From positions 13,640,001 through 13,704,000 of the forward strand of contig OX597835.1 in assembly GCA_951406725.2 (NCBI GenBank): 64,000 bases of DNA, read 5' to 3'. Position numbers and translations under genes: made by a program. The DNA comes from Octopus vulgaris. Its lineage: Eukaryota. The notes below the pieces were generated by a model. The model did no database searches and was not told the DNA's origin. It was given only the letters and a program-made list of their open reading frames with translations. Shown in pieces: positions 4,043-61,775 of the stretch (its first letter is position 1; each line of letters opens with the position of its first letter).

Positions 4043-4298
4043 ATAGGCGCAGGAGTGGCTGTGTGGTAAGTAGCTTGCTTACCAACCACATGGTTCCGGG
4101 TTCAGTCCCACTGCGTGACATCTTGGGCAAGTGTCTTCTGCTACGTCCCCGTCACTTAGTAGTTCAGCAAAAGAGACCAATAGAATAAGTACTGGGCTTA
4201 CAAAGAGTAAGTCCCAGCGTCGATTTGCTCGACTAAAGGCGGTGCTCCAGCATGGCCGCAGTCAAATGACTGAAACAAGTAAAAGAGTAAAAGAGAGA
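4043..4298 (+). mobile_element. tRNA-like SINE, family A (internally deleted)
   Basis: Head GGCGCAGGAGTGGCTGTGTGGTAAG...GGTTCAGTCCC and tail GGCGGTGCTCCAGCATGGCCGCAGTCAAATGACTGAAACAAG(TAAAAGAG)n. Many copies in the window. Confidence 0.8.
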
Positions 4299-5244: not shown

Positions 5245-5251
<7 letters not shown>

Positions 5252-5336
5252 GAAAGAAGGTTTGAAAAAGCAATTTTAAAAGATAAGTAAATAAACATCT
5301 TTTAAAATTGCATTTTCAAACCTTCTTTCGTATATA
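5245..5336. repeat. Fold-back hairpin abutting (TA)n
   Basis: About 40-bp arms, CGAAAGAAGGTTTGAAAAAGCAATTTTAAAAGAT and its near reverse complement, with a 12-nt loop. Confidence 0.85.
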
Positions 5337-5406: not shown

Positions 5407-6092
5407 TAAAAAAAAAGGCAGATAGGATAGTCACAACTGCAGTGTCTTCAATCATGGGTCTGCTTAATCAGGCCTGGCCTTGGGCTAAACACTAACAACA
5501 TCAAGATTATAATAAGCTAGTGCTCCAGTATGGCCCTTCCAGTGATGGAAAGCAAATAAAAGAATGTGTGTGTGTGTGAGTGTATTTGAAGTTGCTCTTT
5601 CATATAAATCACGTCATTGTTGACATAAGCTATAACCAAACCAACGAGTTATGCATTAAAAGGTGTGGGTCACAAACTGACTGTCAAATACATAACATAT
5701 TGGAAGACAAAATGGAGAGAAGGAAGCATGAAAAATATAAACAAACCCCAAAAAAAAAAAACAAAAGGGTGAAAAGTATGAAAAATCCTACAAACATGTC
5801 TACACAGAAATACTGTTTCTGTTTAGAAACATCTATAATAATGATGCCCTGAAGACATCACAGTAAATATCAAAGCCATCGAATACCCCATTGCAAATTT
5901 GAGGATTAATGACACCATCCTCATTAATCAGTTAAACCTGTCTATTAACAGCAGGTACAAACTGTAGGAAGTGGATTGCTTGTTGCTATCATACCGGTTT
6001 GTGCATGTCACACTGCACTGGCCTACCTGCCTGCCTGCTCACATCTTCTCACTTGTGTATGCTAGATACCACTTCACTGTCGTCCTCTGTCC

Positions 6093-6130
6093 TCTTTTGA
6101 TAAAGGGATTTTCACCCCGAAATATTGAGA
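6093..6130 (+). ncRNA. Minimal hammerhead-like motif (U3/A8 variant)
   Basis: TCTT-TTGATAA-A-GGG-ATTTTCAC-CCC-GAAA-TA-TT-GAGA. Confidence 0.4.
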
Positions 6131-6419
6131 CCGTTGTCAACGCCATCATGTTCCCTTTGCCCCTGTTAGCACAGGTTAACACAAAATTCATTGAGGCAGA
6201 TTTTCAACGGCCAGATGCCATTCTTGTTGCCATAAGAAAAAAAGACAATCACCTTAACAAAAGCAGATAGTAAAGCAGATATTTTAATTAAGCAAACAAA
6301 CTGAGTCAAAATAGTGGCACCTAATTTTTAGATGGTTGGATATGTTTGTTGTGGTGGGAAGAAGGAAGAGTGTAGAACCAAAATTACTAGAAATGTTATC
6401 ATTCTGGGTGTATGTGTAC

Positions 6420-6642
6420 TCTTTTACTCTTTTACTTGTTTCAGTCATTTGACTGCGGCCATGCTGGAGCACTGCCTTTAGTCGAGCAAATCGGCCCCGG
6501 GACTTATTCTTTGTAAGCCCAGTACTTATCCTATTGGTCTCTTTTGCCAAACCACTAAGTGACGGGGACGTAAACACACCAGCATCGGTTATCAAGCAAT
6601 GCTAGGGGGACAACCACAGACACACAAACACACACACATATA
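6420..6642 (-). mobile_element. Family A SINE, 3' half (5' half at 7771-7955)
   Basis: Colinear with the intact copies at 19707-20105 and 61371-61775, but interrupted in its internal (CA/TA)n tract. Confidence 0.85.
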
Positions 6643-6875
6643 TGTTTGTTTGTTTTTGTTTTGTTTTTCCAGTTTCAGCTCTTGAGCTGTGGCCATGCTG
6701 GGGCACCGCCATTGTGGTGAAAGAGTACAGCAGGGATCACCACCCCCTGCCGGAGCCTCGTAGAGCTTTTAGGTGTTTTCGCTCAATAAACACACACAAC
6801 GCCCGGTCTGAGAATCGAAACCGCGATCCTGCGACCGCGAGTCCGCTGCCCTAACCACTAGGCCATTGCGCCTCT
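6643..6875 (-). mobile_element. Family B SINE (head plus tail, internally deleted) inserted in a family A SINE
   Basis: tRNA-like head at 6875-6715, GGCGGTGCCCCAGCATGGCC tail and (AAAC)n end at 6712-6643. Confidence 0.8.
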
Positions 6876-8845
6876 ACTTTGAAAACTTTATATTTCGAAT
6901 GGGAATTTAGCAGCCCCACGTCTAGCCAAACAGTTATTCTGTGCTGATGAAGGGAAATAACCTGGAAATCGTGATTTCTGGGATATTTTCTTGAGCTGAG
7001 TGAGGGTGCTAGGCTCCCTTGTTCGAAAATATAAGGACACAGATCGTGTTGTATAGCCGTTAAAATAACTATTGTGGGTCCTCAATTCACTATTTTCTTG
7101 CATGGACCCCCTCACAAAATCTTATATGGACCTCAGGGGCCATATATACCCTGACTGAGAACCGCTGGGTTAAACAAGTTAAATAGTTAAATATGTTGTT
7201 GTGTGGAAACCTAGATTAACTATTTGCCAACAAAAACTAAAACTGGTTTCTACTAATATGTCCCGGTATCTTATTTGCTTCTTTTACTTATTTGCTTTTT
7301 TTTGGTTGTTGAATCAATGACAATGTAAACAATGTAAACAGATCAATAGAGAACTGGATATAATCAATACTCTACTTCATGGATTTAGAAAAAAAAACAA
7401 CAAAAAAACACCTAATTTTCTCGACCTCTGAATAGTACTTCAATCTGTCTTGTGTACTCACTGGAGTAGCATTATTAACGCTGTCAATCACAAAATAGAA
7501 TCTTAATTGTTGATGGATTACAACACTTGCCCCTTGGTCTGCCTGCCAATAGATTATCAAACTTGCGGCTGTTGAGAGACACTTGAAAGTTTCAAGTGTC
7601 GTAAACAAAGCAGTCCAGACTGAAACACCATCCTAAACTTTCATTGTTAATAAACATAAGTAAATATCCCGGTTTGCAGGGAGTAAAAAGGAAACAGTGA
7701 GTCGGTGGAAGATAAACAACAGAATTTTTTTAAAATGTAAAAAAAAATAAATAAATACACAGTCGCAGGTATATATACATATATATACATATATACGACA
7801 GGCTTCTTTCAGTTTCTGTCTACCAAATCCACTCACAAGGCATTGGTCGGCCCGGGGCTATAGCAGAAGACACTTGCCCAAGATGCCACGCAGTGGGACT
7901 GAACCCGGAACCATGTGGTTGGTTAGCAAGCTACTTACCACACAGCCACACCTGCGACTGTGTATTTATTTATTTTTTTTTTACATTTTAAAAAAATTCT
8001 GTTGTTTATCTTCCACCGACTCACTGTTTCCTTTTTACTCCCTGCAAACCGGGATATTTACTTATGTTTATTAACAATGAAAGTTTAGGATGGTGTTTCA
8101 GTCTGGACTGCTTTGTTTACGACACTTGAAACTTTCAAGTGTCTCTCAACAGCCGCAAGTTTGATAATCTATTGGCAGGCAGACCAAGGGGCAAGTGTTG
8201 TAATCCATCAACAATTAAGATTCTATTTTGTGATTGACAGCGTTAATAATGCTACTCCAGTGAGTACACAAGACAGATTGAAGTACTATTCAGAGGTCGA
8301 GAAAATTAGGTGTTTTTTTGTTGTTTTTTTTTTCTAAATCCATGAAGTAGAGTATTGATTATATCCAGTTCTCTATTGATCTGTTTACATTGTTTACATT
8401 GTCATTGATTCAACAACCAAAAAAAGCAAATAAGTAAAAGAAGCAAATAAGATACCGGGACATATTAGTAGAAACCAGTTTTAGTTTTTGTTGGCAAATA
8501 GTTAATCTAGGTTTCCACACAACAACATATTTAACTATTTAACTTGTTTAACCCAGCGGTTCTCAGTCAGGGTATATATGGCCCCTGAGGTCCATATAAG
8601 ATTTTGTGAGGGGGTCCATGCAAGAAAATAGTGAATTGAGGACCCACAATAGTTATTTTAACGGCTATACAACACGATCTGTGTCCTTATATTTTCGAAC
8701 AAGGGAGCCTAGCACCCTCACTCAGCTCAAGAAAATATCCCAGAAATCACGATTTCCAGGTTATTTCCCTTCATCAGCACAGAATAACTGTTTGGCTAGA
8801 CGTGGGGCTGCTAAATTCCCATTCGAAATATAAAGTTTTCAAAGT
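6876..8845. repeat. Long inverted duplication: arms 6876-7770 and 7950-8845, 179-bp spacer
   Basis: The arms are reverse complements; the only difference seen is a 1-nt homopolymer length. Mirror ORFs 6888-7115/8606-8833 and 7372-7608/8113-8337 confirm it. Confidence 0.97.
7771..7955 (-). mobile_element. Family A SINE, 5' half (spacer of the long inverted repeat)
   Basis: Matches the head region of 19935-20105. Confidence 0.85.
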
Positions 8846-8864
8846 GACAACTAGTCACTGACCT

Positions 8865-9125
8865 ATAAATTAGAAAATTACTATTCGTAAATCTCACAAC
8901 GAGAGATATTCAGCAACAGTATTTGAGTGGGGGTGCTAGATTCCCTTGTTTGAAAATATAAGGACACAGGTCGTGTCGTAGAGCCAGCTGGAGACGATGT
9001 CTCCTGAGGCTAAATTACAGCAACATTCGTCCTAAACCAGGACTGCCATGTTATGGCAAACAATCTTTACTCCAAAGTACTGTTGCTGAATATCTCTCGT
9101 GAGATTTAAGAATAGTAATTTTATA
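8865..9125. mobile_element. MITE-like element with about 55-bp imperfect terminal inverted repeats
   Basis: AAATTACTATTC..AAATCTCAC..GAGAGATATTCAGCAACAGTA mirrored by TACTGTTGCTGAATATCTCTCGTGAGATTT..GAATAGTAATTT. Confidence 0.6.
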
Positions 9126-9207
9126 ACTTCCATTTCATCATTAAGTTTTTTGTTTTTTTTTAATTATCTATTTAATTATTCATTTATTTTATTTATTTAT
9201 TTTCCAG

Positions 9208-9283
9208 AGACTGCAAAGATTGTAGGATACTTACATTAGGAAATTACGATAAAACCCAAAACTATGGACTGAATGCCGGCAAG
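9208..9283 (+). CDS. MGAT2: MGAT2 (GnT-II) internal coding exon, xDCKDCRILTLGNYDKTQNYGLNAGK
   Basis: Acceptor ttttccag, donor AAG|gtaagt, phase 2 to 0. Matches the 'CPECDVLSLGTY' region of vertebrate MGAT2 and joins in frame to the next exon. Upstream exons were not found in the window. Confidence 0.88.
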
Positions 9284-19706: not shown

Positions 19707-20105
19707 TACTCTTTTACTCTTTTACTTGTTTCAGTCATTTGACTGCGGCCATGCTGGAGCACCGCCTTTAGTCGAGCAAATCGACCCCTGGACTTATTCT
19801 TTTTGTAAGCCCAGTACTTATTCTATCGGTCTGTTTTGCCGAACCGCTAAGTGACGGGGACGTAAACACACCAGCATCGGTTATCAAGCAATGCTAGGGG
19901 GACAAACACAGACACACAAACATACACACGCATACATATATATACATATATACGACAGGCTTCTTTCAGTTTCTGTCTACCAAATCCACTCACAAGGCTT
20001 GGTTGGCCCGGGGCTATAGCAGAAGACACTTGCCCAAGATGCCACGCAGTGGGACTGAACCCGGAACCATGTGGTTGGTAGACAAGCTACTTACCACACA
20101 GCCAT
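19707..20105 (-). mobile_element. Near full-length family A SINE
   Basis: Head, internal (CA/TA)n tract and tail are all present. Confidence 0.85.
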
Positions 20106-23280: not shown

Positions 23281-23449
23281 AATTTGTTCAACTATACCGT
23301 TGAAGGTGGTGCCCCGGTATGGCCCCAAGTCCAGTGACTGAAACAAGTAAAAGATAGTGTTTCACAAACTTTTCTTTTTTAAGGATTGTACTGAGTGAAG
23401 GTTTAAATAATTTTCAGGGATAGTAATTGGAAGAATTTTCTCTTTACAG

Positions 23450-23574
23450 GAATTCTGCAACTTCGATGATTACAATTGGGATTGGACTTTGCAGCATTTG
23501 AGTATGAAGTGTATCCCTGGTACTGTGAAGGTGATGAAAATGAAGGCCACTCGTGTATTTCATATGGGAACATG
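23450..23574 (+). CDS. MGAT2: MGAT2 coding exon, EFCNFDDYNWDWTLQHLSMKCIPGTVKVMKMKATRVFHMGT(C)
   Basis: Acceptor tctttacag, donor gtgagt, phase 0 to 2. Carries the diagnostic FC..DDYNWDWTL motif. Confidence 0.96.
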
Positions 23575-61199: not shown

Positions 61200-61370
61200 C
61201 TGTTTCAAGGGGGAAAAAAAAGACAATGAAACGTGAATATTATACATCAAAGACGTCAGAAATATTCAAACACACACACACACACGCCACCTGCTGGAAT
61301 TTATTGGCAACAAATCAGTGACTTAATATAAAATAAATTTTAGCACATAAAAAATAGTTGGAGGTATCTC

Positions 61371-61775
61371 TCTTTACTCTTTTACTTGTTTCAGTCATTT
61401 GACTGCGGCCATGCTGGAGCACCGCCTTTAATCGAGCAAATCGACCCCGGGACTTATTCTTTGTAAGCCCAGTACTTATTCTATCAGTCTCTTTTACTGA
61501 ACTGCTAAGTGACGGTGACATAAACACACCAGCATCGGTTGTCAAGCAATGCTAGGGGGACAAACACAAACATACATGCACACACACATATACATATATA
61601 TACATATATACGACAGGCTTCTTTCAGTTTCTGTCTACCAAATCCACTCACAAGGCATTGGTCAGCCCAGAGCTATAGTAGAAGACACTTGCCCAAGGTG
61701 CCATGCAGTGGGACTGAACCTGGAACCATGTGGTTGGGAAGCAAGCTTCTTACCACACAGCCACTCCTGCGCCTA
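61371..61775 (-). mobile_element. Full-length family A SINE
   Basis: Complete from head to (TAAAAGAG) tail. Confidence 0.85.

What the first reader, a model, noticed from the sequence alone, without database searches (positions are those of the whole stretch)
6420..8845. 895-bp inverted duplication fused to a SINE insertion: possible reverse-transcriptase jump onto the host gene's own nascent RNA
Seen: a family A SINE is split in its TA tract (6420-6642 and 7771-7955). The 1.13-kb insert is a family B SINE (tail first, 6643-6875) followed directly, at the SINE's 5' end, by an essentially perfect reverse complement of the flank 7950-8845. The left arm is therefore the new copy and appears to have arrived with the SINE. 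Established: non-LTR retrotransposon RTs prime at the target, copy RNA 3' to 5' and can jump templates. Inference: cDNA grown in the + direction through SINE B and then along + strand sequence from 8845 back to 7950 gives exactly this layout. The + strand is the MGAT2 sense strand, so the second template could be the local pre-mRNA. A DNA fold-back or repair switch is the alternative.
Basis: partly seen in the sequence, partly recalled or inferred. Interest (0 to 1): 0.75.

Follow-up and report, generated by a model that had tools for sequence, protein, structure and literature searches.

The report
SINE insertion with inverted flank copy
A very young short jumping element sits in an intron of the MGAT2 gene, joined at its start to a backwards 895-base copy of the neighbouring DNA; the copy was most likely made from local DNA rather than RNA while the insertion was being sealed, a rare but already described kind of insertion scar with no shown function.

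Summary
The layout is real in the assembly. A very young SINE (96 of 180 surveyed copies identical over its body) splits an older SINE. Its 5' end is fused, with 2-3 nt of microhomology, to an inverted copy (6876-7770) of its own 5' flank (7950-8845), with no substitutions. The right arm is the original: it runs unbroken through a repeat that the left arm cuts. The host gene is MGAT2, + strand. This layout is described for human L1 (fold-back inverted duplication, about 0.4% of insertions, 52-220 bp) and attributed to DNA-templated synthesis; one L1 co-insertion of local pre-mRNA is also published. The copy ends 179 nt from the insertion site and does not cross it, within a transcript of at least 109 kb. 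That favours a local DNA template (about 0.7) over the RNA jump (about 0.13). None of 180 other young copies shows such an event, so strand bias could not be tested. No read across the new junctions was seen. The scan noted similar fold-back scars in other genomes. Verdict: an unusually long, likely germline SINE example of a known insertion by-product.

The parts
6419..6643 (-). Older SINE A, 3' (tail-side) half; the insertion target
   Evidence: 91-95% identical to intact window copies at 19707-19929 and 61368-61592
6638..6643 (.). Candidate 6-bp target-site duplication, left copy (ATATAT)
   Evidence: Largest possible overlap with 7771-7776; this overlap gives the middle closest to intact SINE A copies. 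Inside a TA microsatellite, so inferred
6644..6877 (-). Very young full-length SINE B, A/C-rich tail at the left, head at 6875-6877
   Evidence: 40 of 40 scored genome hits 99-100% identical; 376 exact matches of a 65-nt head pattern; 96 of 180 surveyed copies identical over positions 2-207
6876..6878 (.). Junction SINE head / copy: 2-nt (possibly 3-nt) microhomology
   Evidence: GT precedes position 1 in 59 of 100 copies, AGT in 12 of 100; donor ends in AGT at 8843-8845
6876..7770 (-). New inverted copy of the SINE's own 5' flank
   Evidence: Reverse complement of 7950-8845 with no substitutions; cuts an interspersed repeat at the donor's 8845
7771..7963 (-). SINE A 5' half; 7771-7949 is the 179-nt spacer between the arms; 7771-7776 is the candidate right TSD copy
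   Evidence: 94-97% identical to intact copies; no formal microhomology at 7770/7771
7950..8845 (+). Donor segment (original arm), intronic, MGAT2 sense
   Evidence: Continuous with SINE A's head on the left and with the repeat across 8845/8846 on the right
8663..9010 (.). Interspersed repeat with inverted ends (MITE-like; stem 8663-8724 / 8924-8985). The donor end 8845 lies in its loop
   Evidence: 81-86% identical full-length copies on other contigs; 8 of 9 aligned copies cross 8845/8846 well beyond it and the ninth ends at 8859, none with a gap there; predicted RNA hairpin -138.6 kcal/mol
9208..9283 (+). MGAT2 coding exon downstream of the structure; the structure lies in the intron before it
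   Evidence: Pfam PF05060 positions 192-212, E 0.12, below cut-off, in order between exon matches at G000:C22:13638493-13638651 (146-198) and window 23447-23572 (245-286); AG and GT ends read

Best explanation
A young SINE sits in the TA tract of an older SINE in an MGAT2 intron, fused at its 5' end to an inverted copy of its own upstream flank, and both likely arose in one target-primed insertion in which the finished SINE cDNA most likely primed on the neighbouring + DNA strand. Inferred steps: (1) the + strand was nicked in the TA tract and primed reverse transcription of the SINE from tail to head (6644 to 6877); (2) the cDNA 3' end paired by 2-3 nt with the + DNA strand at 8843-8845 and was extended, by the RT or a host polymerase, back towards the nick; (3) synthesis stopped at 7950, most simply because the nicked + strand had been trimmed back about 180 nt and the template ended there; (4) the new end was joined without homology to the minus-strand end at 7771, leaving a 6-bp duplication. 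The product is likely a neutral scar. It would form an 895-bp hairpin in the pre-mRNA, but it brackets no exon found here.
For: Single event: the copy abuts the complete SINE 5' end, and both parts are of zero-substitution age. Direction: 2-3 nt microhomology at the SINE junction and none at 7770/7771. The minus-strand end matches only 2 of 8 bases at 7949, while 7 of 8 (7969) and 8 of 8 (8579) sites were available and unused. DNA template: the copy comes from the 5' flank, is inverted, ends 179 nt from the nick and does not cross it, although the transcript spans at least 109 kb; there are 0 A>G changes among 272 A. Precedent: PMC10191854 section 11 reports 3 plus 1 fold-back inverted duplications upstream of L1 target sites (0.3% + 0.1%, 52-220 bp), and its preprint explains them by extension of the cDNA 3' end on the upstream DNA strand. 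The 5' junction of this family is error-prone: repeated head pieces of 7 nt or more in 13 of 180 copies against 33 of 1800 control windows. Organism B contigs show arm depth 16 against flank 14.2, as expected without the duplication; run X1 shows 102 against 59.
Against: A 2-3 nt pairing needs the + strand at 8845 to be single-stranded, about 1 kb from the nick, and nothing here shows how. The copy is 4 to 17 times longer than the 52-220 bp cases. 0 of 180 other young copies show a second case, so no family-wide pattern backs it. A DNA and an RNA template of the same strand give the same final sequence. No contig or read across either new junction was seen. X1's arm contig appears to run about 20 letters past the point where two continuations should fork (69 letters beyond 7722; my reading of the record coordinates), which hints at a single continuation in that run, though contig simplification can remove a branch. 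Contig depth is a poor copy-number measure.
Confidence: 0.42

Rival explanations
1. Fold-back of the reciprocal end. After both strands were cut, the + strand was resected by more than 1 kb. The minus-strand 3' overhang at 7771 folded back with a 179-nt loop, primed at 7950, copied 896 nt, and was joined to the cDNA end through the 2-3 nt microhomology. This route is also DNA-templated; together with the best explanation it makes about 0.7.
For: The same layout is modelled this way for L1 in 10.1101/2024.12.14.628481 section 9 and PMC11702581 Fig. S9C legend. That work also shows a 917-bp inversion at a reciprocal end, so kilobase resection occurs. Resection from the first nick exposes exactly this strand. 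A small snap-back in the TA tract (7769-7776 with 7781-7788) could have supplied a 2-nt primer for 7950-7951.
Against: No formal microhomology at 7770/7771, and better priming sites nearby were not used. The published inverted duplications have small hairpins with 2-bp homology, not a 179-nt loop.
Confidence: 0.28
2. One reading: the RT finished the SINE RNA, jumped by 2-3 nt pairing onto MGAT2 pre-mRNA at 8845, copied 896 nt and was then joined to the target.
For: The copied strand is MGAT2 sense. Direction and microhomology fit. One L1 insertion with co-inserted local precursor mRNA is reported (PMC10191854 section 11; figure not seen), and nine two-RNA insertions in PMC11702581 section 7. 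The copy is longer than the known DNA fold-backs.
Against: Nothing in an RNA would stop the RT 179 nt before the insertion site or tie the donor to that spot in a transcript of at least 109 kb. Position 8845 is mid-intron, inside a repeat, with no sign of an RNA end. 0 of 272 A are changed to G; this is weak, because a nascent RNA ending at 8845 lacks the partner strand of the stem. Sense match alone has even odds.
Confidence: 0.13
3. Assembly artefact: a fold-back long-read chimera or a mis-join beside a real SINE B insertion.
For: No junction-spanning contig or read was seen. The arms differ only in homopolymers, and X1's single arm contig differs from both arms at one of them (3 more A than the left arm at 7388). 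That contig seems not to fork at 7770.
Against: A read chimera gives a mirror point, not an offset copy with a 179-nt spacer that is entered from a SINE head and left into the SINE A remainder; two exact switches would be needed. The layout equals a known biological class. Depth in X1 is 1.7 times the flank.
Confidence: 0.07
4. Two independent events: SINE B inserted, and a replication or repair template switch later (or earlier) placed the inverted copy at its 5' end.
For: Inverted duplications of a few hundred bases are common without mobile elements (277 events, median 284 bp, PMC12350158 passage).
Against: The second event would have to hit the exact first base of a SINE that has no substitutions yet.
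Confidence: 0.05

Closest known systems
Short fold-back inversion (inverted duplication) 5' upstream of somatic L1 target sites, process C of Nam et al. 2023 (PMC10191854: section 11 read whole, other passages; preprint 10.1101/2022.05.18.492429: one passage; figures not seen)
   Same: Target-primed insert whose 5' end is joined to an inverted copy of the upstream flank; rare (3 plus 1 events, 0.3% + 0.1%; here 1 of 181); the preprint's model is extension of the cDNA 3' end on the upstream DNA strand.
   Different: Here a non-autonomous SINE in an invertebrate, present in an assembly (so likely germline), with a copy of 895 bp instead of 52-220 bp.
Inverted duplication at the reciprocal end of L1 insertions, Mendez-Dorantes et al. 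(10.1101/2024.12.14.628481: section 9 read whole, passages; PMC11702581: section 7 read whole, passages, supplement 1 part 3 of 5 with the Fig. S9-S10 legends)
   Same: Same order of parts with the target-site duplication kept; kilobase-scale local rearrangement (917-bp inversion).
   Different: Their two inverted duplications have small hairpins with 2-bp homology at the turn; here the loop is 179 nt with no formal homology at the turn and 2-3 nt at the SINE junction.
L1 co-insertion of local precursor mRNA by RT strand switching (PMC10191854 section 11 and the Extended Data Fig. 9g legend; figure not seen)
   Same: Extra sequence from a gene transcribed at the insertion site, in the sense the RT would read.
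   Different: One case; its geometry could not be seen. Here the donor is tied to the nick in the way the same paper assigns to DNA synthesis.
Flank-derived 5' extra nucleotides of LINE inserts (PMC4245944, passages; PMC2912911, passages)
   Same: Extra bases at the 5' junction, a large share of them taken from the flanks (PMC4245944).
   Different: Described there as a few extra nucleotides, not a kilobase.

Membership tests
Fold-back inverted duplication at a non-LTR insertion (DNA-templated) | Target-primed insert with its tail at the 3' junction | tested here: met
   Full-length SINE B with A/C tail at 6644-6668 in a TA tract, like many surveyed copies
Fold-back inverted duplication at a non-LTR insertion (DNA-templated) | Inverted copy of the 5' upstream flank joined to the insert's 5' end | tested here: met
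   Segment -895..-1 equals the reverse complement of -1075..-1970 in SINE-sense coordinates
Fold-back inverted duplication at a non-LTR insertion (DNA-templated) | Donor begins near the nick and does not cross it | tested here: met
   Donor starts 179 nt from 7771
Fold-back inverted duplication at a non-LTR insertion (DNA-templated) | Target-site duplication kept | tested here: inconclusive
   6-bp ATATAT fits best but lies in a microsatellite; no empty allele seen
Fold-back inverted duplication at a non-LTR insertion (DNA-templated) | One event (empty allele and complete allele only) | tested here: inconclusive
   Only contig depth: organism B 16 vs 14.2, X1 102 vs 59; junctions not seen
Self-annealing sub-model (Mendez-Dorantes Fig. 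4D,E) | Small hairpin with about 2-bp homology at the turn | tested here: not met
   179-nt loop, no formal homology at 7770/7771; 2 nt only if a prior snap-back is assumed
Pre-mRNA co-insertion by RT strand switch | Copied strand is host-gene sense | tested here: met
   All 6 PF05060 matches on +
Pre-mRNA co-insertion by RT strand switch | RNA marks in the copy (splice junction, poly-A end, A>I edits) | tested here: inconclusive
   None: 0 substitutions, 272 A unchanged. An unspliced nascent intron piece need not carry any
Pre-mRNA co-insertion by RT strand switch | Across events, orientation of the copy follows the SINE's orientation to the host gene | tested here: inconclusive
   0 of 180 other copies had an event, so nothing to count
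Pre-mRNA co-insertion by RT strand switch | Host gene transcribed in the germ line | not tested
   The one run search asked for DNA runs

The most novel reading that the evidence does not exclude
The RT that moves this SINE jumped onto the nascent MGAT2 pre-mRNA at the very site of insertion and fixed 895 nt of unspliced intron as a heritable inverted duplication: a germline, SINE-borne, invertebrate case of in-place RNA capture, which would show that retrotransposition complexes can reach transcripts still attached to the target gene.
Probability: 0.13. Interest if true: 0.55.

Novelty: new member of a known kind. Interest (0 to 1): 0.2.

Why it matters
It extends a rare by-product of L1 insertion, which I found described only in human somatic and cell-culture data, to a SINE in an invertebrate assembly, at about four times the largest length given in PMC10191854. 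Such events make long, perfect inverted repeats in one step. This one would give the MGAT2 pre-mRNA an 895-bp double-stranded stem, a likely ADAR substrate in an animal group known for heavy A-to-I editing (recalled), and a possible fragile site. No effect is shown. Searches listed no SINE or cephalopod case of this layout in titles or abstract starts; most listed papers were not opened and the library lacks most subscription journals.

Tried and rejected
Survey for sister events: 180 of the 375 other exact-head copies were examined (the first 100 listed, contigs 1-4, 9 kb each; 80 more chosen from the GT-headed lists, 8 kb each; 1.54 Mb). A self-BLAST that found the focal event as positive control gave one other inverted hit at a 5' end, L092. 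I rejected it: the SINE sits inside a palindromic repeat also present in 2 other loci. L032 from the first 29 short loci was rejected for the same reason (94% palindrome, 2 other loci). Direct hits at L081, L097, L120, L125 and L162 are long target duplications or tandem repeats, not inverted copies. An exact-word scan for short templated pieces missed the focal control, so its counts are not used. Contig laying: SINE-derived contigs swamped the joint and loose-end tables, the tool skipped 6608-6674 and 7723-7798 as repeats, and runs X2 and X15 listed no long arm contig, so their low arm depth is not used. The SINE/arm junction remains unchecked in reads. Rfam gave only a chance microRNA match to the palindromic repeat (27.5 bits against a cut-off of 195) and no tRNA match for either SINE head. 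A 5'-transduction from a source SINE at 8846 was rejected: the repeat there is unbroken. Naming RTE as the partner LINE was dropped: no test was run, and earlier scan notes point to Tx1 for a SINE in this genome. The paper search for ORF2p template jumping onto pre-mRNA with all five terms found 0 papers. Figures of the papers, and the supplements of the 2026 bioRxiv version, were not seen and may hold junction details that bear on the comparison.

Full report
Observation. The two arms, 6876-7770 and 7950-8845, align over 897 columns with no substitution and three one-base homopolymer differences. They are 179 nt apart. The spacer and the stretch 6419-6643 are the two halves of one older SINE (A), which are contiguous in intact copies at 19707-20104 and 61368-61774. 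Between the left half and the left arm lies a second SINE (B), tail first. The arm's unique part was found only at these two places in the 2.8-Gb genome. I take the animal to be an octopus from recall of these SINE sequences; no call names it.

Which arm is new. The left arm sits inside SINE A. It also cuts an interspersed repeat (8663 to about 9010) at the donor's position 8845, while the right arm runs through that point like other copies (9 aligned copies, none with a gap there). The left arm is the copy.

Age and single origin. SINE B is very young: all 40 scored hits are 99-100% identical, a 65-nt head pattern has 376 exact matches, and 96 of 180 surveyed copies equal the focal copy over positions 2-207 (29 differ at one base, 5 at two, 50 have indels or more in an ungapped comparison). 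The copy abuts the complete 5' end. GT precedes the head in 59 of 100 unselected copies and AGT in 12, and the donor ends in AGT, so the junction has 2, perhaps 3, shared bases. The other junction (7770/7771) has none. A 6-bp ATATAT duplication at 6638-6643 and 7771-7776 gives the SINE A middle closest to intact copies, but it lies in a microsatellite and is inferred.

Host gene. Six MGAT2 (PF05060) matches lie on the + strand over 109 kb. The short exon at 9208-9283 matches profile positions 192-212 weakly (E 0.12) and in the right order.

Geometry. Read in SINE sense the locus is: 5' flank, inverted copy of that flank, SINE, 3' flank. Three routes give this. (B) The cDNA end primes on the + DNA strand at 8845 and is extended back towards the nick. 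(A) The opposite end is resected, folds back at 7950 and is extended to 8845. (C) The RT jumps to pre-mRNA at 8845. The final sequence cannot show the chemistry of the template, so the choice rests on position and junctions. A and B both require a donor in the 5' flank, inverted, ending near the nick and not crossing it; all are true here. C requires only the sense strand, which has even odds, and does not explain a stop 179 nt before the nick. No A>G change among 272 A is mild evidence against RNA, weak because a transcript ending at 8845 would lack the partner of the 62-nt stem. Between A and B, the minus-strand end matches 2 of 8 bases at 7949 while 7-of-8 and 8-of-8 sites lie at 7969 and 8579, and the shared bases are at the SINE junction. 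That favours B. Against B, how the + strand was opened 1 kb from the nick is not shown; 8845 does lie in the loop of a long inverted repeat.

Sister events. In 180 of the 375 other exact-head copies (100 unselected, 80 chosen for a GT start; flanks of 3.5-5 kb) none has an inverted copy of its flank at the 5' end; one raw hit was a pre-existing palindromic repeat. The rate of 1 in 181, with the 1 being the selected case, is compatible with the 0.4% reported for L1. The 5' junctions of the family are untidy: repeated head pieces of 7 nt or more occur in 13 of 180 copies (3 of 100 and 10 of 80) against 33 of 1800 control windows, and a few copies have target duplications of 33-90 nt.

Reads. Twenty of 24 listed runs hold part of the region; four were laid on 6000-7949. 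In organism B (X4) the arm contig has depth 16 against 14.2 for the flank, as for a single copy. In X1 it has 102 against 59, compatible with an extra copy but also with a heterozygous flank. X1's contig seems to pass the expected fork at 7770 without a break, which counts against two continuations in that run unless the assembler pruned one. Neither new junction was seen, so reality rests on the assembly and on the implausibility of a two-switch chimera.

Comparison. PMC10191854 (section 11) reports short fold-back inversions upstream of L1 target sites in 3 plus 1 insertions (52-220 bp), and one adenoma event with co-inserted local precursor mRNA. Its preprint explains the fold-backs by route B (passage). 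This locus meets the layout features of the DNA-templated class and fails only the small-hairpin detail of route A. What differs is the carrier (a SINE), the host, the likely germline origin and the length.

Verdict. A real feature of the assembly, most likely one insertion event, DNA-templated at about 0.7 (B 0.42, A 0.28), RNA jump 0.13, artefact 0.07, two events 0.05. New member of a known kind; interest 0.2.

Noticed in passing
L140, L148, L168, L171, L178, L180, L184, L197, L208, L214 (within 45 nt upstream of the SINE head): Ten of 180 young SINE B copies carry a 9-20 nt repeat of the SINE's own first bases just before the real head, some with flank-like bases in between: aborted and restarted synthesis at the 5' junction.
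   Followed up: partly
L097 (59 nt), L081 (33 nt), L162 (63-90 nt, in a minisatellite): Unusually long target-site duplications around young SINE B copies, while most copies have none detectable outside TA tracts.
   Followed up: no
L048, L108, L022, L043 (just upstream of the SINE head): Short tandem duplications of flank sequence directly at the 5' junction.
   Followed up: no
L074, L077, L084, L157 (tails): Variant SINE B tails built of a different repeat unit (ATAAAC-like or GACAAA-like) instead of AAAAC.
   Followed up: no
window 8663-9129: The MITE-like repeat has two overlapping sets of inverted repeats (8663-8724/8924-8985 and 8867-8924/9075-9129), and several genome copies occur as tandem units about 350 nt apart.
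   Followed up: no
L092 (about 800 nt, 98.6%), L032, L008, L031 flanks: Long near-perfect palindromic stretches are common beside young SINE B copies; those of L092 and L032 recur in other loci, and in L092 the SINE landed inside one arm.
   Followed up: partly
window 6664-6713 against 4235-4284 and other SINE A copies: SINE A and SINE B share a similar 50-nt 3' region (about 80%), suggesting a common or related partner LINE, not identified.
   Followed up: no
G000:C22:13556300-13665486: MGAT2 is split into at least seven coding pieces over 109 kb here, whereas the human gene has a single coding exon (recalled). The first two Pfam matches overlap in the profile (2-91 and 53-113).
   Followed up: no
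window 5245-5336: A 40-bp, 98% inverted repeat with a 12-nt loop directly after a TA tract, about 1.1 kb upstream of the finding.
   Followed up: no
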